Shown: positions 117 through 33,297 of the stretch, piece by piece
Numbering within the stretch: position 1 is the first letter of the stretch
Layout of the letters: the number at the start of each line of letters is the position of its first letter
Assembly: GCA_951406725.2 (NCBI GenBank)
Contig: OX597841.1
Span: 1,736,001 to 1,800,000, forward strand
Direction: 5' to 3'
Length of the DNA: 64,000 bases
Origin: Octopus vulgaris
Lineage: Eukaryota
The notes under the pieces: model-generated
The model's input: the letters and a program-made list of their open reading frames with translations, nothing else
Database searches by the model: none
What the model was told of the DNA's origin: nothing
Program-made: the position numbers and the translations under genes

Positions 117-952
117 ATCTATCTATCTAGCTATCTATCCGCTCAGTCGAAGTCGACTCTCGGTCACTCGTTGGATCAGTGTCCTCCAGTCAGTTCTATC
201 CTGGGCCGCTTCTTTCAGATTGGCTATGACCATTCCGGTATCACTCTTGATGGTGTCAAGCCAGCGGGTTCTTGGTCGGCCTCTTCCTCTCTTGCCACTG
301 ACCATTCCGAGCACATATATATATATATATATATGTATCTATCTATCCGCTCAGTCGAAGTCGATTCTCGGTTACTCAATGGATCAGTGTCCTCCAGTCA
401 GTTCTATCCTGGGCCACTTCTTTCAGATTGGCTATGTCCATTCCAGTATCACTCTTGATGGTGTCAAGCCAGCGGGTTCTTGGTTGGCCTCTTCCTCTCT
501 TGCCACTGACCATTCCGAGCACATATATATATATATATGTATCTATCTATCCGCTCAGTCGAAGTCGATTCTCGGTTACTCAATGGATCAGTGTCCTCCA
601 GTCAGTTCTATCCTGGGCCGCTTCTTTCAGATTGGCTATGTCCATTCCAGTATCACTCTTGATGGTGTCAAGCCAGCGGGTTCTTGGTCGGCCTCTTCCT
701 CTCTTGCCACTGACCATTCCGAGCACATATATATATATATGTATCTATCTATCCGCTCAGTCGAAGTCGATTCTCTGTTACTCAATGGATCAGTGTCCTC
801 CAGTCAGTTCTATCCTGGGCCGCTTCTTTCAGATTGGCTATGACCATTCCGGTATCACTCTTGATGGTGTCAAGCCAGTGGGTTCTTGGTCGGCCTCTTC
901 CTCTCTTGCCACTGACCATTCCGAGCATGATGTCCTTCTCTAGGGATTTTCT
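117..952 (-). mobile_element. Tandem array of four 3' ends of an RTE-BovB-like LINE (period 202-208 bp)
   Basis: ATCTATCCGCTCAGTCG recurs at 133, 341, 545 and 747. The reverse strand translates as (KSLEKDIM)LGMVSGKRGRGRPRTRWLDTIKSDTGM.IANLKEAAQDRTDWRTLI..VTE.RLRLSG* followed by an (ATAG)n tail, resembling the RTE/BovB ORF C-terminus. Confidence 0.8.
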
Positions 953-6206: not shown

Positions 6207-7196
6207 TTAAGAGGTTAACATATCATAGAAATGTGGTTCCTCCCCTGTATGAATACGTTTGTGTTTCGTTAAGCTGCTATTTTGAGAGAATGATTTACCA
6301 CAAATGCCACAGTGAAAGGGTTTTTCTCCTGTATGAAAAAGTTTGTGTTGAGCTAAGTTTCCATTTTGAGAGAATGATTTGCCACAGATATCACAGTTAT
6401 ATGGTTTCTCTCCTGTATGAATACGTTTGTGTGGAGTTAAAGCACTACGTTTAGTGAATGATTTACCACAGATATCACAGTGATATGGCGTCTCCTTTGT
6501 ATGAATACATCTGTGTGAAATTAAGGTACTATTTTGCGAGAATGATTTACCACAGATATCACACTGATATGGCTTCTCTCCTGTATGGATACGTATATGT
6601 ATTGTTAACTGACTACTCTGAGAAAATGATTTACCACAGACATCACAATGATAGGGCTTTTCTTTGGTATGAACATGATAGGGCTTCTCTTTGGTTTGAA
6701 CACGATATGGCTTCTCTCCAGTATGAATTCGTTTGTGCGGAGTTATTTTACAACTTTGAGAGAATGATTTACCACAGATATCACAGTAATATGGCTTCTC
6801 CCCTGTATGAGTACGTTTGTGAGTATATAGATTACTTTTTTGACAAAAGGACTTATTACAGATGTCACAATGGTAGGGCATCTCTCCTGTATGAATACGT
6901 TTGTGAGCATATAGATTACTGTTTTGAGAAAAGGATTTACCACAGATATTACAGCAATACGGCATCTCTCCTGTATGAGTACGTTTGTGTCTAGTTAGGT
7001 TACCACTGGAAGTAAAAGATATACCACAGATATCACAGTGATATGGCTTCTCTCCTGTATGAATATATTTGTGCATAGTAAGATTTCTTTTCTGAGAGAA
7101 GGTCTTATTACAGACGTCACAGTCATATAATTTTTTTCTCTTTTTAATCATGTTCTCTGGTAAAATAAATTCCTCAAGTTTCTCATTCTTTTCCAT
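6207..7196 (-). CDS. C2H2 (Kruppel-type) zinc-finger protein, 10 fingers, ~329 aa, single coding exon
   Basis: Open frame with ten C-x2-C-x12-H-x3-H motifs and TGEKP-type linkers. The first in-frame ATG is at 7196 ([10 protein letters not shown]...); the ORF-track start at 7289 is a GTG. Stop at 6207-6209. No KRAB, SCAN or BTB domain is visible. Confidence 0.9.
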
Positions 7197-7880
7197 TATT
7201 TCCCTTCTCAAACCACCATATATATTTTTCCTGCTTTTGTTCTTATAGTTTACTCTTACAAATACTTCCACTGCTGTATTTCTGTCCACTGTTACCTTTC
7301 TCTCAGAACTCTTTTTTGTTAAGGCTTTTTGAAGATTAATTTGCCTACAAACTCATCTTCAAAAACTCCAGTAAGAGATGTTCAGAAATATTGCTAATAA
7401 TCTCAGGTCAGAGCAAATATTTTATAGGAATTTTACCATAGATTTAGAGAGAGTCTTATATATTTCCTCTGTATAACATTTTCCTTTAGTCTTTAAAAGA
7501 TGATAAATATTGTGAATGGATCTTCAGTTATGCCAATGTCATTCCATATTCTGAAATAACAAAGAAATATCAGTGGAAGATAAAGATGCTACATAAAAGA
7601 AGAGATTCAACAGTGGAAAATTTATAAATTTTCTATAGATATAAACTTTAGAAATATACATTTACCTGAACAACTGAACTGTTTAATTTATTATAATTTA
7701 CATCACAGAATCTTGTGTGAAACTTACATATTTGCAAACAACAACTAAACCTTCACATTGTGTAACAATATTTAGATTAAACAACAGAATAATGGACAAT
7801 GACAATATTTTCTCAACTGAAATATAATTTGACACTGTTTAGCCCTGAGACAGCTCTAGTTGAGCAAAAATTTGATTAAA

Positions 7881-18720: not shown

Positions 18721-19045
18721 CTTCTTTTAGTTTCTGTCCACCAAATCCATTCACAAGGCTTTGGTCAACCCAAGGCAATTGTAGAAGACACTTACCCAAG
18801 GTATCATGGCAGTGACACTGAACCTGGAACCATGTGGTTGGGAAGCAAGCTTCTTTCCCCACAATCATGTATATATATATATACTTCATACATTGATGTT
18901 GAGTGGAGGAATCCTAGAACCCCAACAGTTAAGATCACCAATCATAGTCAAGAGATTAACTGCAACGCATCCATAGGTGTGGCATCCATGATTGTGTAAT
19001 GTGCTAATGGAAGATTCGTTGTGACTCAAGCTTCCAGTTCAAATT

Positions 19046-19395
19046 TGTAGTGATGCTACTGTGTAGGGTTCAGCGTGCATGCGCAGAATGGGACTACTTC
19101 CAGGTGGCCACCGGAAGTCTTCCCCATGCGCATGTGCGGGAAACGTTCCCTTAGGCCCGCCAAACTCAAATCCTCCTCTCTGGCAAGTCAGCCAACTCGA
19201 TCGGACGTACATTTCACAGGCTCTGATAACCTCACCAACTTAGCCGCCAACGACCATCGAACCTCTTCAACAAACGAACAAGAAGCTGTACATCAGAGGC
19301 TGTCCTTCTCCCATCAGACACACGTATGCCATCGCAACAAATAAACAAACTGCTGTCTTTTACCTGCAACCTGACTTCGTCTGTATTGTCTTACA
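19046..19395 (+). mobile_element. Probable solo LTR
   Basis: 350-bp GC-richer island beginning TGTAG and ending TTACA, with AATAAA near 19340 and imperfect flanks AAATT/AAAAT. Confidence 0.5.
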
Positions 19396-19544
19396 AAAAT
19401 TGTATGTGACTGGATCAGATCGACACCCTTTCAGTGAATCGATAACAGATCCTATTACAAATTCATTATAAAGGAATTGGATGATGACAGAAAGTCATGG
19501 AAATCCACAAAAAGGAGCAAAACCAAAGAAGTGGAATATATATT

Positions 19545-20530
19545 TGAAGCTAGCATGATCCGCTGGATGTGTAACGTCAGTGTCCATGCCCGACAGAGTG
19601 TAAGCACCCTGAAACAAATGTTGGACATAAGAAGCATCGAATGCAGCGTGCAGGAGAGACGTTTGCGTTGGTATGGTCATGTACTACGGATGGATGAGGA
19701 GAGATGTGTGAAGAAGTGCCACTCCCAAACTGTTGAAGGAATCCGGGGTAGAGGTAGACCCAGGATGACATAGGACAAGGTGGTCAAGCATGACCTTCGT
19801 ACGTTGAGCCTCACAGAGGCTATGACAAAAGACTGAGACCTCTGGAGATATGCGGTGACTTCAAAGACCCGACAAATGGAGTGAGTTCATGGCTTGCAGG
19901 ATGGCCTGCTGTGCTTGAGGAGACCTATTGTGTCAAGTACATCAAAATAGAAATTGAATGGATATTGTAGTTGTGATACCTGTGCCGGTGGAATGTAGGG
20001 CCTCACAGAGGAAATGACGAAGACTGAGACCTCTGAGATATGCTGTGTCTGTGAAGACCCGACAAATGAAGTAAGTTCTTGGCTCACAGGACGGCCTGCT
20101 GTGCTAACCTTGGATCGTAGAGTGACCTGCTATTCTTGAGGAGACCTATTAAGTCAAGTATGTCAACACCAACATCAAAATAAAAATTAAATAGAAATTG
20201 TAGTTGAGATACCCGTGCCAGTGACACGTAAACAGCACCACCCGAACGTACCAGATGCCAGAGCCGCCTGATTGGCATCCGTGTCGGTGACACATAAAAG
20301 CACCAACCGATTGTGGTCGATCATGGCCCCTGTGCCGGTGGCATATAAAAAGCACCCACTACACTCATGGAGTGGTTGGCATTAGGAAGGGCATCCAGCA
20401 GTAGAAACACTGCCAGATCAGACCGGAGCTTGGTGTAGCCTCCTAGCTTCCCAGACCCCGGTCAAACTGTCCAACCCATGCTAACATGGGAAATAGACGT
20501 TAAACGATGGTGATGATGATGATGATGATA
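19545..20530 (+). mobile_element. 5'-truncated RTE LINE with 3'UTR
   Basis: EASMIRWMCNVSVH..RLRWYGHVLRMDEERCVKKC..GRGRPR; GAT tail at ~20505-20530. Confidence 0.85.
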
Positions 20531-20699
20531 GTTATCTTTTAGTTTCCATTCTATCAAATCCATGCAACAATATTTTGTGGAACTGAAGCTGTAGAAAAAG
20601 ATATTTCACTAAGGAGCATGATAATGGGATTGAACCTGAAACCACAGGACACTGAAGCAAACTTTTCAACCACATAGCCACGAAAGCACCCCAACTGTT

Positions 20700-22473
<1,774 letters not shown>

Positions 22474-22479
22474 ATATAT

Positions 22480-23550
22480 TTGAAAGTGTAACGGCTAGAG
22501 TAAGGATAGCCTCGGCAAAGTTTAGGGAGCTCTTACCTCTGCTGGTGACAAAAGGCCTCTCGCTCAGAGTAAAAGGCAGACTGTATGATGCATGTGTACG
22601 TACAGCCATGCTACATGGTAGTGAAACATGGGCCGTGACTGCTGAGGATATGCGTAAGCTCACAAGAAATGAAGCCAGTATGCTCCGATGGATGTGTAAT
22701 GTCAGTGTTCATACTCAACAGAGTGTAAGTACCTTGAGAGAAAAGTTGAACCTAAGAAGCATCAGTTGTGGTGTGCAAGAGAGACGTCTGCGCTGGTATG
22801 GGCATGTGATGAGAATGGCTGAAGATAGTTGTGTGCAAAAGTGCCACACTCTAGCAGTTGAGGGAACCTGTGGAAGAGGTAGACCCAGGAAAACCTGGGA
22901 TGAGGTGGTGAAGCACGACCTTCGAACTTTAGGTCTCACCAAGGAAATGACTAGAGACCGAGACCTATGGAAGTATGCTGTGCATGAGAAGACCCGGCAA
23001 GACAAGTGAGAACAGTCAAAATCAAACCAAATCAACATCAGTGGAAATTGCAGCTGTGGTTAAGCGAACCATCCGATCGTTTGTCCGTTGCCAGCCTCGC
23101 CTGGCCCCCGTGCTGTTGGCACGTGAAAGCACCATCCGTTCGTGTCCGTTGGCAGCCCTGCCTGGCCCCCGTGCCACTGGCACATAAAAGCACCATCCGC
23201 TCGTGTCCGTTGCCAGCCTCGCCTGGCCCCCGTGCCGGTAGCACGTAAAAGCACCATCCGTTCGTGTCCGTTGCCAGCCTCGCCTGGCCCCCGTGCCGGT
23301 GGCACGTAAAAACACCATCCGTTCGTGGCCGTTTGCCAACTCTGTCTGGCACCTGTGCAGGTGGCACGTAAAAAGCACCCACTACACTCATGGAGTGGTT
23401 GGCGTTAGGAAGGGCATCCAGCCGTAGAAACACTGCCAGATCAGACTGGGCCTGATGAAGCCTTCCGGCTTCACAGACCCCAGTTAAACCGTCCAACCCA
23501 TGCTAGCATGGAAAACGGACGCTAAATGATGATGATGATGATGATGATGA
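22480..23550 (+). mobile_element. 5'-truncated RTE-PHD LINE with five UTR units
   Basis: ORF 22545-23009 is intact to the stop; UTR units at 23068-23380; GAT tail. Confidence 0.9.
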
Positions 23551-23865
23551 TATATATATACAGCATATATATATATATATATATATACATTGTACCTACC
23601 AACAGTTATGTGTGTTTGTGTAATTATTCTTTTATTTGTTTCAATTATTTGACTGTGGCCATGCTACAGAACCACCTTAAAGGGGTTTTTTAGTCAAAGA
23701 AATCAACCGCAGGATTTATTCCTTATTCGAAACCTAATACCTATCCTATTGGTCTCTTTTGCCAAACCGCTAAGTTCTGGCGACATAAACACACCTACAC
23801 TAGTTATCAGGTGATGGCGGAGGAACAAACATAGGCACAAAGTGATTATCACATAAATACATACG

Positions 23866-23899
<34 letters not shown>

Positions 23900-24090
23900 G
23901 GCGCAGGAGTGGCTGTGTGGTAAGTAGTTTGTTTACCAGCCACATAGCCACATGGTTCCGGGTTCAGTCCCACTACGTGGCACCTTGGGCAAGTGTCTTC
24001 TACTATAGCCTCGGGCTGACCAAAGCCTTGTGAGTGGATTTGGTAGACGGAAACTGAAAGAAGCCCGTCGTATATATGTATATATATATA

Positions 24091-26168
24091 TTGCTCTAAT
24101 TGCTGAGTCATTATCAGAACTGGAGAAGAAGTTTCAGGTGTGGAAGCATGGTTTAGAATCGAAGGGCCTTAGAGTCAACCTAGCTAAAACCAAAGTCGTA
24201 ATAAGTAGGAAGGTAGACAAATCACAAACGCCTTCAGGTAGATGGCCCTGCTCGATCTGTAGAAAAGGTGTAGGTAGAAACTCTATAAGATGCACCAAGT
24301 GTAAGCTATGGACACATAAGAGGTGCAGCAATGTCATAGGAAGGCTAACTAGGAAGATGGTTTTTGTATGTGGCAGATGCTCGGGAGCATTAACCTCTGA
24401 AAATCTGCAGAAAACAACTTCCGTCACTTTCCAGGGGGAAAAACTAGAAGTGGTTGATAGCTTCCGTTATCTTGGTGACCAAGTCAGTAGTGGGGGTGGG
24501 TGTGCTGAAAGTGTAACGGCTAGAGTAAGAATAGCCTGGGCAAAGTTTAGGGAGCTCTTACCTCTGTGGGTGACAAAAGGCCTCTCGCTCAGAGTAAAAG
24601 GCAGACTGTATGATGCATGTGTACGAACAGCAATGCTACATGGCAGTGAAACATGGGCCGTGACTGCTGAGGACATGCGTAAGCTCGTGAGAAATGAAGC
24701 TAGTATGCTCCGTTGGATGTGTAATGTCAGTGTTCATAGTCGACAGAGTGTAAGTACCTTGAGAGAAAAGTCGGACCTAAGAGGAATCAGATGTTGTGTG
24801 CAAGAGAGACGATTGCGCTGGTATGGTCATGTGGTGAGAATGGATGAAGATAGGTGTGTGAAAAAGTGCCACACCCTGGCAGTTGAGGGGACCTGTGGAA
24901 GAGGTAGACCCAGGAAAACCTGGGTCGAGGTGGTGAAGCACGACCTTCGAACTCTAGGTCTCACCAAGGAAATGACCAGAGACCGAGACCTATGGAAGTA
25001 TGCTGTGCGTGAGAAGACCCGGCAAGACCAGTGAGAACAATCAAAATCAAATCATATATCAGAAAGCAGGGGTTAAGTGACCCATCTGTTCGTGTCCGCT
25101 GTCAGCCTCGTCTGGCACCCGTGCCGGTGATACGTAAAAGCACCATTCGCTCTCGGCCGTTTGCCAGCTCTGCCTGGCCCCGTGTCGGTGGCACGTAAAA
25201 GCACCATCCGTTCGTGTTCGTTGCCAGCCTCGCCTGGCCCCGTGCCGGTGACACGTAAAAGCACCGTCCGTTCGTGGCCGTTTGCCAGCTCTGTCTGGCC
25301 CCGTGTCGGTGGCACGTAAAAGCACCATCCGTTCGTGGCCGTTTGCCAGCTCTGTCTGGCCCCGTGTCAGTGGCACGTAAAAGCACCATCCGTCCGTGTC
25401 CGTTGCCAGCCTCGGCTGGCCCCCGTGCCGGTGACACGTAAAAGCACCGTCCGCTCGTGGCCGTTTGCCAGCTCTGTCTGGCAACCGTGTCGGTGGCACG
25501 TAAAAGCACCATCTGTTCGCATCCGTTGCCAGCCTCGGCTGGCCCCCGTGCCGGTGACACGTAAAAGCACCATCCGTTCGTGGCCGTTTGCCAGCTCTGT
25601 CTGGCCCCGTGTCGGTGGCACGTAAAAGCACCATCCGTCCGTGTTCGTTGCCAGCCTCGGCTGGCCTCCGTGCCGGTGACACGTAAAAGCACCGTCCGCT
25701 CGTGGCCGTTTGCCAGCTCTGTCTGGCAACCGTGTCGGTGGCATGTAAAAGCACCATCCGTTCGCGTCCGTTGCCAGCCTCGGCTGGCCTCCGTGCCGGT
25801 GACACGTAAAAGCACCGTCCGTTCGTGGCCGGTTGCCAGCTCTGTCTGGCCCCGTGTCGGTGGCACGTAAAAGCACCATCCGTTCGTGTCCGTTGCCAGC
25901 ATCGCCTGGCCCCGTGCCGGTGACACGTAAAAGCACCATCCGTTCGTGGCAGTTCGCCAGCTCTGTCTGGCACCTGTGCAGGTGGCACGTAAAAAACACC
26001 CACTACACTCGCGGAGTGGTTGGCGTTAGGAAGGGCATCCAGCCGTAGAAACACTGCCAGATCTGACTGGGCCTGACGAAGCCTTCCAGCTTCACAGACC
26101 CCAGTTCACCCGTCCAACCCATGCTAGCATGGAAAACGGACGCTAAACGATGATGATGATGATGATGA
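24091..26168 (+). mobile_element. Young 5'-truncated RTE LINE: RT C-terminus plus PHD finger, 15-unit UTR array, GAT tail
   Basis: Uninterrupted frame ALIAES..GLRVNLAKTKV..C4HC3..LEVVDSFRYLGD..RLRWYGHV..GRGRPRKTW to the stop at 25034. Confidence 0.92.
25082..26000 (+). repeat. ~61-bp minisatellite, 15 units, A/B higher-order alternation
   Basis: GGTGRCACGTAAAAGCACC recurs every 60-62 bp; unit order ABABBABABABABAB. Confidence 0.95.
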
Positions 26169-26679
26169 TATATATATACTTTATTTAAAGCAGCAGAAAA
26201 TTTAAAGTAGCAGAAAATTCAACAAAATCTGTTACGCATATATATATGCGTGTGTGTGTTTGTGTGTCTGTGTTTGTCTCCCAAGCATTGCTTGACAACC
26301 AATGCTGGTGTGTTTATGTCCCCGTTACTTAGCAGTTTGGCAAAAGGAGACCGATAGAATAAGTACTGGGCTTACAAAAAGAATAAGTCCCAGGATCGAG
26401 TTGCTCGATTAAAGACGGTGCTCCAGCATGGCCGCAGTCAAATGACTGAAACAAGTAAAAGAGTAAAAGAGTATATATATAAATATGCATATATATATAT
26501 CTATGTATGTAAGTATACGATAGGCTTCTCTCAGTTTCCAGGTACCAAATATTCTCACAAACTTTTGGTCAGCCCGATGCTAGCATAGAAGACACTTGCT
26601 CAAAGTGCCAAGCAGTGGGACTGAGCCTGGAACCATGTGGTTGGCAAACAAGCTACTTACCACATAGCTATGCCTATAT

Positions 26680-27220
26680 ATGTGTGTGTGTGTTTGTTTC
26701 TATGTGTTTGTGTGTGTGTGTTTGTTTCTATGTGTTTGTGTGTGTGTGTATGTGTGTGTGTGTGTGTGTGTGCGCGTGTGTGTGTGTGTATGTATACATA
26801 CATGTATATATGTATACATAATTGGTATATAAGTATACATAATTGGTATATACAGCATTTTGAAAGCTAATTACTATATATGTAATTGTTACCTCACATA
26901 TATGTATATACACAAACATATGTATGTACATAAATATGTACATATACATACATACATACACACACAAACACACACACACGTACATACATACATACTTACA
27001 TACATACATATATACATACATGAGTACATACAAATGTGAGAGTGTATGTATGTTCAAGTTGTTTCGATTTTTCTCTGAATGAATGGTTTGCTATAAATAT
27101 ATATATATAGATACATACATACATGCACGTGTACATACATATGTACATATGCATGTGTGTGTATGCGTGCGTTTGTGTATATAAACATAGGCATATATAT
27201 GCATATTTATAAATATATGT

Positions 27221-29423: not shown

Positions 29424-30884
29424 CGTTCTGTTTCTGAGAGTTATCCTATTGGACCTCTGTCTAATCTATAGGTGCAGGAGTGGCTGTGTGGTAAGTAGCT
29501 TGCTAACCAACCACATGGTTCTGGGTTCAGTCCCACTGCGTGGCATCTTGGGCAAGTGTCTTCTGCTATAGCCCCGGGCCGACCAATGCCTTGTGAGTGG
29601 ATTTGGTAGACGGAAACTGAAAGAAGCCTGTCGTCTATATGTATATATATATATATGTGTGTGTGTGTGTTTGTTTGTCTGTGTTTGTCCCCCTAGCATT
29701 GCTTGACAACCGATGCTGGTGTGTTCACGTCCCCGTCACTTAGCGGTTCGGCAAAAGAGACCGATAGAATAAGCACTGGGCTTACAAAGAATAAGTCCCG
29801 GGGTCGATTTGATCGACTAAAGGCGGTGCTCCTGCATGGCTGCAGTCAAAATGACTGAAACAAGTAAAAGAGTAAAAGAGTAAAGAGTAATCATTAAAAC
29901 ATTGTTTTAATGATTCAGCATTAAGTGCTGTAACATGCCTTGGCTAATCTTGGGAAAGTCTCATCTCCCTTTTCTCTACAGACTCCATTTGATGTGTTGC
30001 AGCCTCCCTTTGCTGATCTTGAGAAAGTCTCATCTCCGTTCTGTATTGAGACTCCATTTGACATACTGCAGCATGCATTTGCTAATCTTGGGAAAATCTC
30101 ATCTCCCTTCCCTCTCGAGACTCCATTTGACATTCTGCAGCATGCATTTGTTGATCTATGGAAACACTCATCTTGCTTCTGTTTTGAGACTCCATTTGAC
30201 ATGCTGCATCATGCATTTACTGATCTGTGGAAAGTCTCATCTCTCTTCTCTCCTGAGATTTTCACCTTTGGTTTTCTACAATCCTCTTTGCTTTATATTT
30301 GTGTCTTTGGTGGCATTTTTTTTTTTCAATATTGTCAACAAAAAGTTATGAACATAGAAGAAATTATACAGTAATCTCTATTTTTGTAAGCAGTTGTATG
30401 CAGTATGTCTTTATATTTGTATACAGTATAAATGAACCAAATAGAAGCACATGTATGAACTGCTAATTTAACAGTAAATGCCACAATAATTATTGTAGAT
30501 AAATTTCTTAATATATATATATTAAGCACATGTATTAAATGTTAATTTAAGGGTAAATATGTAATTGTAAGTACCGTGCAACTTTGTAACTGCTGCGATA
30601 ATTATTAACTGGTAATTAAATAGTAAATGTGTATTTTTATATACCCTGGTCCTGACACCCCATTGTTTTTTGTCAAGAGTTTCACCTCCAGCTGTTTGTT
30701 ATGTCAGTCAACACACATACACTGACACACCATTCTGCTGTCGAGGCTGTAAAGATGGAAAGTTGCTGATGTATAATGTTGTTCACATTAGGATATAAAT
30801 TATTCCTTTATTTCAAATATAATAGAAATAAGATGATCTTAGTGTTATCACATAAGAATTAAAAGCGAAACAATATTATATCAC
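29424..30884 (-). mobile_element. Duplicated Helitron 5' segment (paralog of 32170-33083) interrupted by a SINE
   Basis: Long near-identical blocks shared with 32170-33083; 69-bp repeat present about five times. Confidence 0.75.
29471..29887 (+). mobile_element. Intact tRNA-derived SINE family A (CORE-like, internal TA/TG microsatellite)
   Basis: A-box-like TGGCTGTGTGG, B-box-like GGTTCAGTCCC, CORE-like CTTGGGCAAGTGTCTT, tail (GTAAAAGA)n; TSD TAATC confirmed by the empty paralogous site near 32210. Confidence 0.9.
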
Positions 30885-31744: not shown

Positions 31745-33297
31745 ATAAAGTAAATTTGGAGGAACTTCGGTTGTTCATTTGTGGGTAACAGGGAACCAAT
31801 GAGGTGATAGACTTGTCCTTGAACTTTGTCAGCATAAACCCATGTTCAACTATATCCTTAGATGCACCAAATAATGTCATCTGAAATGCAGGGTTATATT
31901 GTCTGATATTGTTCAGAAAATTCTTTGACTGGATGGTAGAGCCATCCAGAAGTTCCATGAGAGGTTAAGGAGGAGCTGGTAGTACTGGCAATCTTACCTT
32001 AACACTTGAGCAGCACATGCCATTAGTGTCATTTGGAAATTTTAAAACTATGCTGAAATGACAATTTGAGTTTAGCACACCAATTTGGATGGAATTATCG
32101 TTTTTATAAGAATAGGATGGATCATATCTGAAAGCAGCTACAAGAGCTGTGAAGAACAAATTTGTATGTGTTCTGTTTCTGAGAGCTATTCTATTGGACC
32201 TCTGTCTAATCATTAAAACATTGTTTTAATGATCCAGCATTAAGTGCTGTAACATGCCTTGGCTAATCTTGGGGAAGTCTCATCTCCCTTCTCTCTGGAG
32301 ACTCCATTTGATGTGTTGCAGCATCCCTTTGCTGATCTTGAGAAAGTCTCATCTTGCTTCTGTCTAGAGACTCCATTTCACATTCTACGACATACTTTTT
32401 ATGATATTGAGAAAGTCTCATCTCCCTTCTCTCTTAAGACTCTTGCTTTTGGTTTTCTACAATCCTCCTTGCTTTATAGTTGTTTCTGGCGAGGTTATGT
32501 CTTTTCTTTGGTGGCATATTTTTTTCAATATTGTCAACAAAAATTTAATAACATAGAGAAAATTATATATTAATTGCTATTTTTGTAAGCAATTTTATGT
32601 ATGTAGTATATCTATATTTTGTATGCAGTGTAAATTAACCAAATCTAAGTAAATTAACCAAATAGAAGTACATGTATGAACTGCTAATTTTACAGTAAAT
32701 GTCACAATAATGATTATAAATAAATTTCTTAATATATATATATTAAGCACATGTATTAAATGTTAATTTAAGAGTAAATATGTAATTGTAAATACCCTGC
32801 AACTTTGCAACTGCTTCGATAATCATTAACTGGTAATTCAGTGGTAAATGTGTATCATTATATACCCTGGTCCTGACACCCCATTGTTTTTTGTCAAGAG
32901 TTTCACCTTTGTCAGATACACTGACACACCATTCTGCTGTTGAGGCTGTGAAGATGGAAAGTTGCTGATGTATAATATTGTTCACATTAGGATATAAATT
33001 ATTCCTTTATTTCAAATATAATAGAAATAAGATGATCTTAGTGTTATCACATAAGAATTAAAAGTGAAACAATATTATATCACATTACAATATAGATCTT
33101 ATTCTTTCACTTTTGACATGTAATATCGAACCAGTACCAATATTATATTGTTTTAATCCAAATGAAAAAAAATTATATGTTGACATGCATGGGGTCTGAT
33201 ACTATTACCTTGTAAAATTTGAATTGATTTGGTTGAGCTGTTTGAGAATGCATAGGTAACAGACAGGCAAAGAGACAAAGAATTTTATATGTATAGA
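31745..33297 (-). mobile_element. Helitron 5' portion with degenerate RepHel N-terminus
   Basis: 5' A|TCTATACATATAAAA at 33297; peptides GMCCSSVKVRLP, FLNNIRQYNPAFQMTLFGA and VQGQVYHLIGSLLPTNEQPKFLQIYF, with stops and frameshifts. Confidence 0.85.

What the first reader, a model, noticed from the sequence alone, without database searches (positions are those of the whole stretch)
25082..26000. Covarying, hairpin-structured 61-bp A/B repeat array in a LINE 3'UTR
Seen: 15 units ordered ABABBABABABABAB. Each has a GCCAG-N6-CTGGC-type hairpin and a TAAAAGCACC motif. A bodies are enclosed by GGCACG…CGTGCC and B bodies by GACACG…CGTGTC, a compensatory pair that keeps a perfect 6-bp closing stem; the extra B unit closes with a G-U wobble. 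Inference: the RNA folds into a chain of identical modules, possibly multivalent protein-binding, packaging, localisation or small-RNA precursor elements. Caveat: amplification of a single ancestral dimer counts as only one covariation event. This is my best candidate for an undescribed system in the window.
Basis: partly seen in the sequence, partly recalled or inferred. Interest (0 to 1): 0.7.

Follow-up and report, generated by a model that had tools for sequence, protein, structure and literature searches.

The report
Variable repeat array in LINE tail
The 15 repeats are real and sit in the tail of a young jumping gene, whose copies across the genome carry 5 to 20 of them in the same order; each repeat is predicted to fold into a small RNA structure, but the one paired change between A and B repeats arose once, and the extra repeats are likely spare copies made by slippage rather than a new working system.

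Summary
In detail: 15 units, ABABBABABABABAB; 10 of 14 two-armed units have a perfect 6-bp closing stem. The array is the 3' UTR VNTR of a young (99% identical) RTE-type LINE subfamily, likely in an octopus. All 30 best-matching insertions carry it (5-20 units) in one ordered series. The 15-unit order recurs on other chromosomes, so it travelled with the element. The unit is a general 3' UTR module of at least six subfamilies, which carry 1 to 14 bodies (an older family has none). The A/B pair is one event. Folding predicts that neighbouring palindromic junctions pair over 14 bp, closing only alternate units. Best reading: a slippage-grown VNTR of a mildly constrained RNA module, with the extra copies near-neutral. 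This scan already reported the same module on other DNA of this genome.

The parts
24091..25034 (+). 5'-truncated remnant of an RTE-type LINE ORF (end of RT, PHD-like Cys/His insert, C-terminal region); stop codon at 25032-25034
   Evidence: sister copies give a 1047-aa stop-free frame with endonuclease and RT
25035..25078 (+). subfamily-specific A-rich spacer between the stop codon and the array
   Evidence: present in the 30 best-matching copies
25079..25980 (+). 15-unit VNTR (60-62 bp), order ABABBABABABABAB; junction GGT anchors at 25126, 25187, 25247, 25308, 25369, 25430, 25492, 25553, 25614, 25675, 25737, 25798, 25859, 25919, 25981
25187..25246 (+). type A unit: GGT, GGCACG, TAAAAGCACC, linker, GCCAG/CTGGC hairpin, CGTGCC
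25247..25307 (+). type B unit: GGT, GACACG, TAAAAGCACC, linker, GCCAG/CTGGC hairpin, CGTGTC
25975..26000 (+). terminal junction core (TGTGCA-GGT-GGCACG-TAAAAAA-CACC), present in all seven subfamilies examined; candidate H-type pseudoknot
   Evidence: the pseudoknot is inferred from sequence, not shown
26018..26063 (+). conserved GGAAGGGCATCC domain, also found in SINE-like elements of other organisms; likely the RTE 5'-UTR/Ceph-type domain (assignment recalled, not aligned to the published figure)
   Evidence: absent from this subfamily's own 5' UTR; PMC5786205 section 19
26111..26142 (+). 3'-terminal stem-loop of the element (CGTCC/GGACG with an inner hairpin)
   Evidence: predicted fold, z -1.57; similar terminal stem-loops in RTE relatives from metagenome contigs
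26150..26169 (+). (ATG)n tail, followed by the (TA)n target microsatellite

Best explanation
The array is a variable tandem repeat in the 3' UTR of a young RTE-type LINE subfamily, present in the same unit order in many independent insertions, and it likely grew and shrank by slippage between look-alike units, so that the extra units are likely near-neutral spare copies of one predicted RNA module. Shown: location, unit order, inheritance across insertions, variable copy number, hybrid units at breakpoints, CpG decay after insertion, and the same module in 1-14 copies in sister subfamilies. Inferred: the source element carried 15 units (the window copy keeps that order) and most shorter arrays are block deletions; the A/B pair arose once in a two-unit ancestor and was then amplified. 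Inferred, weakly: the junction core (GTG..GGTG.CAC.TAAAA.CACY) and the hairpin arms are under mild purifying selection in transposing lineages and fold as a stem crossed by a GGUG/CACC helix. The copy next to the 3' end would be part of the RNA surface that the element's own protein recognises, as in other stringent LINEs.
For: 30 of 30 best matches carry the array (5-20 units, 11 units in 9 of 30) with identical first and last alleles. The 15-unit order with the diagnostic alleles m and l recurs on other chromosomes (L001, L018, L024), in 5'-truncated, (ATG)n-tailed copies. Allele l is a hybrid of the head of one unit and the body of another. 0 of 30 loci repeat a rare whole-unit allele. Of 179 private changes in 322 units only 1-2 non-CpG changes are shared by two units of one locus, against about 0.4 expected by chance (hand estimate). 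CpG sites mutate at 0.024 versus 0.005 elsewhere. Sister subfamilies duplicate other 3' UTR blocks of 5, 17, 26-30, 62, 183 and 355 nt, so duplication is not specific to this unit. A subfamily with near-100% identical copies has degenerate junctions. One subfamily has one body and the oldest has none. Hairpin arms are paired in 79 of 80 cells over 16 different loops. In homologous source junctions G2A, G7A and C14T never occur, while at least 6 changes hit C1, C6 or G15 (hand count; p 0.016 at 50:50, about 0.08 when weighted by dead-copy rates).
Against: The A/B pair keeps Watson-Crick pairing, with a chance of about 0.02-0.03 for a structure fixed in advance, and it weakens the local hairpin (-1.8 and -5.3 versus -8.0 kcal/mol) while keeping cross-pairing, which a neutral model must call coincidence or templated repair. 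The two youngest subfamilies examined have the longest 3' UTR arrays, which could mean that longer arrays are favoured. Whether resizing happens during reverse transcription or in DNA could not be decided. The copies were chosen as best matches to a query holding the first four units, so the 5-20 range is conditional on that. No binding or activity data exist.
Confidence: 0.63

Rival explanations
1. Functional multivalent chain. Every unit folds as RCACG/CGUGY closing a junction with the GCCAG hairpin, with GGUG/CACC crossing it (a permuted pseudoknot). The A/B change was selected to stop local hairpins and fix the register, and unit number tunes protein loading or transposition.
For: The long-range stem is kept better than the local one across 17 modules (93.8-96.3% versus 84.7% of cells) and is the RNAalifold consensus. 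Two modules that lost the upstream arm keep the downstream pairing (F3 first, F8 first). One foreign element (L425) has GGTG-TC-ACAG-TAGAAA-CACT at the homologous place, with ACAG pairing downstream (1 of 30 foreign segments; shuffle rate 0.006).
Against: Covariation is not significant (42-51 of 500 shuffles). The fold z-scores of single units are near zero, and 14-bp junction-junction pairing (-24.1 kcal/mol) competes. Subfamilies with one body, no body or degenerate junctions spread widely.
Confidence: 0.13
2. Fully neutral. Neither the unit nor its core is under RNA-structure selection. Conservation reflects recent duplication, and apparent compensation comes from palindrome-templated repair between GTGC/GCAC words or from CpG decay on both strands.
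For: The junction is a 15-nt near-palindrome, so any two junctions pair. A similar cross-unit 'compensation' (GTCAG in one unit, CTGAC in the next) appears in subfamily F8 and fits no single-module fold. The second double change (CG to TA) is CpG-type, and CpG decay is strong. No structure passes the shuffle test.
Against: Hairpin arms stay fixed while loops vary in length and sequence. Inner CpG positions never change in source lineages although they do in dead copies. The terminal core is kept in all seven subfamilies, including one about 80% identical, and at a homologous place in L425.
Confidence: 0.13
3. Poly(A) substitute. In an RNA that ends in (AUG)n, tandem local H-type pseudoknots with an A-rich loop stabilise the RNA or aid translation, like the upstream pseudoknot domain of tobacco mosaic virus.
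For: Each junction can form S1 GTG/CAC and S2 GGTG/CACC with an A-rich loop. In the oldest family C11-G22 extends S2, and bare junction cores form arrays of their own. First and terminal junctions keep the upstream arm although the long-range model gives them no use for it.
Against: The local model scores below its shuffles (430 of 500). In this array the local 5:11 pair is U-G or C-A. No expression or stability data exist; the analogy rests on one review passage.
Confidence: 0.09
4. Local post-insertion satellite expansion or an assembly artefact.
For: Tandem arrays are error-prone to assemble. One non-CpG private change is shared by units 10 and 12 of this copy.
Against: The same ordered alleles occur at 30 loci on many chromosomes, and the same 15-unit order at three of them. 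Units differ by diagnostic alleles rather than being collapsed copies.
Confidence: 0.02

Closest known systems
SVA/LAVA composite retrotransposon VNTR (Lupan et al. 2015, PMC4432496; passages read)
   Same: A GC-rich VNTR inside a retrotransposon, with subfamily-specific ordered repeat units, conserved terminal units and hybrid units at breakpoints.
   Different: Here it is in the 3' UTR of a LINE that encodes its own ORF, not the centre of a non-autonomous composite, and the unit is a predicted structured module. That paper places remodelling at the DNA level, which could not be tested here.
Hypervariable 3' UTR tandem repeats of Ogre/Tat LTR retrotransposons (Vondrak et al., PMC7004042; passages read)
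   Same: Short tandem arrays of variable monomer and length downstream of the coding region, carried with the element.
   Different: Those are plant LTR elements; this is a non-LTR element, and its monomer is shared between subfamilies with a conserved core.
RTE-clade LINEs and the RTE 5'-UTR/Ceph domain of bipartite elements and SINEs (Kojima 2018, PMC5786205; passages and section 19 read)
   Same: Single endonuclease-RT ORF, trinucleotide tail, and a conserved domain followed by an RTE-type 3' end as in SINE-like elements.
   Different: Here the domain lies in the 3' UTR of a coding element and is missing from its 5' UTR. RTE relatives in metagenome contigs have short 3' UTRs, and the octopus-type core had 0 hits in 79 loci. 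The paper's alignment figure and supplements were not seen.
A-clade R2 3' UTR pseudoknot-hinge-stem (PMC11601368; passages read)
   Same: A 3' UTR pseudoknot near the terminal stem, as proposed here for the terminal core.
   Different: In R2 it is a single copy, solved by cryo-EM and tested by mutation. Here it is multi-copy, predicted only, and in another clade.
RTE-2_OV of Octopus vulgaris (Petrosino et al. 2022, PMC9115989; passages read)
   Same: An RTE-clade LINE with one ORF of about 1100 aa.
   Different: It is described with a C2H2 finger and a 3' UTR that is mostly microsatellite; 'tandem' does not occur in its main text. Sequences were not compared, so identity is untested.

Membership tests
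RTE-clade LINE | Single ORF with AP endonuclease and RT | tested here: met
   1047-aa stop-free frame in sister copy L414 with Exo_endo_phos and RVT_1 above cut-off
RTE-clade LINE | 3' short-repeat tail and 5' truncations | tested here: met
   (ATG)n tail in 29 of 30 loci, (GTG)n-like in L020; varied 5' truncation points
RTE-clade LINE | Target-site duplication | tested here: inconclusive
   Both flanks are (TA)n, so a duplication cannot be delimited
RTE-clade LINE | Placement inside the RTE clade in an RT tree with named references | not tested
   No named reference elements were at hand; the clade label rests on structure and recalled features
Retrotransposon-internal VNTR (SVA/LAVA type) | Ordered, subfamily-specific repeat units with variable number between insertions | tested here: met
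   16 alleles in 3 or more loci, in fixed order; 5-20 units
Retrotransposon-internal VNTR (SVA/LAVA type) | Hybrid units at duplication or deletion breakpoints | tested here: met
   Allele l, in 6 loci, joins the head of a GACACG unit to the body of the extra B unit
Retrotransposon-internal VNTR (SVA/LAVA type) | Remodelling at the DNA level after insertion | not testable with these tools
   No orthologous loci available; deletions leave no signature in private mutations
SVA/LAVA family proper | Non-autonomous composite with Alu-like and SINE-R or L1 parts | tested here: not met
   The array follows the ORF of a coding LINE
Known Rfam RNA family or self-cleaving ribozyme | Match to a covariance model | tested here: not met
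   None of 29 matches up to E 5 in 20000-27000 overlaps the array
H-type or permuted RNA pseudoknot | Two crossing helices possible in most members | tested here: met
   GGTG/CACC 90.8% and RCACG/CGTGY 96.3% of cells paired in 17 modules
H-type or permuted RNA pseudoknot | Compensatory changes beyond chance | tested here: inconclusive
   No double change in GGTG/CACC; 42 of 500 shuffles reach the score; the local form 430 of 500
H-type or permuted RNA pseudoknot | Fold shown by probing or structure | not testable with these tools
   Needs SHAPE/DMS or structure determination
RTE 5'-UTR/Ceph domain (Kojima 2018) | Sequence match to the published domain alignment | not tested
   Figure and supplement not seen; motif assignment recalled. 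The motif precedes RTE-type tails in foreign SINE-like elements

The most novel reading that the evidence does not exclude
This LINE lineage moved a conserved leader-type RNA domain to its tail and built in front of it a chain of circularly permuted pseudoknot modules. The A/B double change locks each module into register by destroying the local hairpin, making a multivalent landing strip for the element's own protein, so that unit number acts as a dial on retrotransposition.
Probability: 0.12. Interest if true: 0.7.

Novelty: new variant of a known kind. Interest (0 to 1): 0.33.

Why it matters
Ordered VNTRs inside retrotransposons are known. Here one sits in the tail of a very abundant LINE group (108 terminal domains in 1.26 Mb sampled), and its unit is a candidate structured module. 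The natural series of 1 to 14 bodies across subfamilies, and 5 to 20 units within one, is a ready dose series for asking what RTE-type proteins recognise in their RNA. If unit number changed activity, it would be a tunable 3' cis-element not found in my literature searches. As it stands it mainly documents how LINE tails seed minisatellites.

Tried and rejected
Rfam: no family overlaps the array. Ribozyme: the unit resembles part of the HDV core by recall, but lacks the required adjacency of helices; no hammerhead or twister core by inspection (features recalled). Coding role: + frames through the array contain stops; two long minus-strand frames are repeat-derived and were not pursued. Expression: no RNA holder listed on record. 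Contigs of three runs guessed to be RNA span spacer, first unit and first junction; only X10 bridges the stop codon by 31 or more letters. The same runs touch 6, 11 and 2 of 30 bins of a unique control stretch, against 29 of 30 for X15. Copy-level mutual information on 230 junctions was set aside: rows are not independent, include false positives and are dominated by CpG decay. In one search one false-positive row (F5 row 1) and one private variant (L010 row 3) were dropped by hand for the CpG count. A general pseudoknot in the GGAAGGGCATCC domain (loop with downstream TGCC) was rejected because annelid-type copies lack the partner. The claim in earlier notes that the core sits in relatives' 5' UTRs could not be confirmed: none of the 12 foreign loci showed it before an ORF, and viral contigs gave 0 hits. 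An unbiased sample anchored on the last unit gave coordinates only, so the rate of truncation inside the array is open. Literature: eight searches found no description of this array; 'cephalopod + RTE + pseudoknot' gave 0 papers. Subscription journals, Repbase/Dfam entries and supplements were not seen and may describe it.

Full report
1. Observation. The window holds a 61-bp tandem array at 25082-25994. Splitting it at the GGT-RCACG-TAAAA anchor gives 15 units in the order ABABBABABABABAB. All 15 carry a 5-bp hairpin with a 6-nt loop, and 14 of 15 junctions are followed by TAAAAGCACC. Ten of the 14 units that have both arms close with a perfect 6-bp stem, three with one G-U, and the last with two mismatches.

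2. Context. The array follows the stop codon of a 5'-truncated ORF (24091-25034) with a PHD-like insert. Its homologues carry RVT_1, and the closest named hits are from Octopus, so the genome is likely an octopus (inference). Sister copies extend to about 4.0 kb upstream of the stop, and one has a 1047-aa frame with endonuclease and RT. After the array come a terminal junction, a GGAAGGGCATCC domain, a stem-loop and (ATG)n. This is the anatomy of an RTE-type LINE; the clade was not tested by a tree. Rfam has no match on the array.

3. The array travels with the element. A search of the genome with the ORF end plus the first four units gave 40 top places at 98-100% identity. All 30 fetched loci carry the array, with 5-20 units, 11 in 9 of 30. 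Sixteen unit alleles occur in three or more loci, in a fixed order. L001 (this copy), L018 and L024, on three chromosomes, share the 15-unit order with the diagnostic alleles m and l; the 11-unit type equals it minus one 245-bp block. Both lengths occur on both sides of another diagnostic change (alleles g and i), so I infer a 15-unit source with recurrent block loss. No locus repeats a rare whole-unit allele (0 of 30). Of 179 private changes in 322 units only one or two non-CpG changes are shared within a locus, close to chance (hand estimate 0.4). Private changes are five times more frequent at CpG (0.024 versus 0.005). The sample is biased to copies that keep the first four units. An unbiased resample returned coordinates only.

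4. The unit is a general module. In 1.264 Mb of unselected sequence (window plus 120 stretches, mostly from small chromosomes) there are 108 terminal domains, and 69 have at least one junction upstream. Thirty copies each of six further subfamilies were aligned. They carry one body (F4), about three (F5, F8, F3), or none (F9, the oldest, about 80% identity). F2, whose copies are about 100% identical, has degenerate junctions and 355-bp duplications that include the ORF end. Blocks of 5, 17, 26-30, 62, 183 and 355 nt are duplicated in these tails. Duplication is therefore a property of the whole 3' UTR, and many bodies are not needed for spread. RTE relatives in metagenome contigs have short 3' UTRs with one terminal stem-loop (part of that output was cut), and the core has 0 hits in those 79 loci.

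5. Structure. Single units fold no better than shuffles (z -0.55 and +0.34). Each junction is a 15-nt near-palindrome. The A-to-B and B-to-A junctions pair with each other over 14 bp (-24.1 kcal/mol), while their own hairpins are weak (-1.8 and -5.3; the ancestral type -8.0). In the whole 3' UTR only 4 of 14 closing stems exceed probability 0.5, mostly alternate ones, so a chain of identical modules is not predicted. But 51 of 500 shuffles reach its covariation score. Only two pairs have double changes: the A/B event and a CpG-type CG-to-TA change. The top pair is broken in 3 of 17. The chance that two of the four non-loop A/B differences form a compensatory pair is about 0.02-0.03 for a structure fixed in advance, for one event.

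6. A crossing helix. Pairing them gives a pseudoknot with 90.8% of cells paired, no double change, and no significance (42 of 500). Indirect support: hairpin arms are paired in 79 of 80 cells over 16 loops. Among homologous source junctions the CpG transitions G2A, G7A and C14T never occur, while at least six events hit C1, C6 or G15 (hand count after dropping one false-positive row and one private variant; p 0.016 to about 0.08). In the oldest family C11 can pair with G22. One foreign contig, L425, has a homologous core at the same distance from the domain, with a different stem pairing downstream (1 of 30 foreign segments; shuffle rate 0.006). This is suggestive and no more.

7. Expression. 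No holder is on record as RNA. Contigs of three runs guessed to be RNA span the spacer and first unit, and those runs barely touch a unique control stretch. Strand and origin are unknown, so I treat this as a hint only.

8. Mechanism. Shown: position, inheritance, order, variation, hybrid units, CpG decay, dispensability of multiple bodies in sister subfamilies. Inferred: slippage between look-alike units, in reverse transcription or in DNA, resizes the array; the A/B dimer arose once; the terminal core with the adjoining domain and stem-loop is part of the RNA signal read by the element's own protein, and upstream copies are redundant. Confidence 0.63. The functional chain gets 0.13, full neutrality 0.13, a poly(A) substitute 0.09, and a local or assembly artefact 0.02.

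9. Known systems. It works like the SVA/LAVA VNTR (PMC4432496, passages) and the Ogre 3' UTR repeats (PMC7004042, passages), but belongs to neither family. The terminal domain recalls the RTE 5'-UTR/Ceph domain (PMC5786205, passages and section 19; figure not seen); this subfamily's own 5' UTR lacks it. A tested 3' UTR pseudoknot exists in R2 (PMC11601368, passages), and tandem ones in TMV (PMC13564737, one passage). Passages of PMC9115989, PMC13282606, PMC4824008, PMC5804259, PMC3747384 and PMC8967140 do not describe the array; no supplements were read. Eight searches found no description. Earlier unreviewed notes of this scan report the same module on other pieces of this genome. My pseudoknot reading was written down before I saw them, and they are not counted as support.

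10. Verdict. A real feature; a new variant of a known kind; function unproven. Interest 0.33.

Noticed in passing
window 21070-22420 (+): A very young sister subfamily (30 copies about 100% identical) whose 3' UTR holds tandem 355-bp duplications that include the ORF end, then three 62-bp units; junctions partly degenerate.
   Followed up: partly
window 19032-19544: A unique stretch with motifs of promoter type (ACTACTTCC, CCGGAAGT, TGCGCATG; factor assignments recalled). RTE copies to its right lie on +, the one at 16.7-17.1 kb on -.
   Followed up: no
window 6207-7352 (-): C2H2 zinc-finger exon with at least nine fingers.
   Followed up: partly
L256 92-560 (+): About 14 copies of a 30-bp repeat made of the bare junction core without the hairpin body; shorter 26-bp versions in L064 and L257.
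   Followed up: partly
L414-L416, 5' region of near-full-length copies: An intron-like stretch of about 126 nt (GTAAGG...TTTCAG) near the start of the ORF, kept in the genomic copies, plus tandem duplications in the 5' UTR.
   Followed up: no
L425 about 740-520 (-): A foreign contig with a homologous core, the GGAAGGGCATCC domain and an RTE-type tail; L429 and L431 carry tandem variants of the domain itself.
   Followed up: partly
subfamily F9, L380-L409: In the oldest subfamily the duplicated block is junction plus GGAAGGGCATCC domain (two copies), with no hairpin body.
   Followed up: partly
window 29926-30258 and 32251-32442: 69-bp tandem repeats with a 23-aa periodic open frame; origin unknown.
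   Followed up: no
window 120-927: Four 204-bp tandem copies, 96% alike, each with a (TA)n stretch; looks like the reverse strand of a short LINE 3' end.
   Followed up: no
L001-L030 flanks: Most insertions of this subfamily abut (TA)n microsatellites on one or both sides.
   Followed up: no
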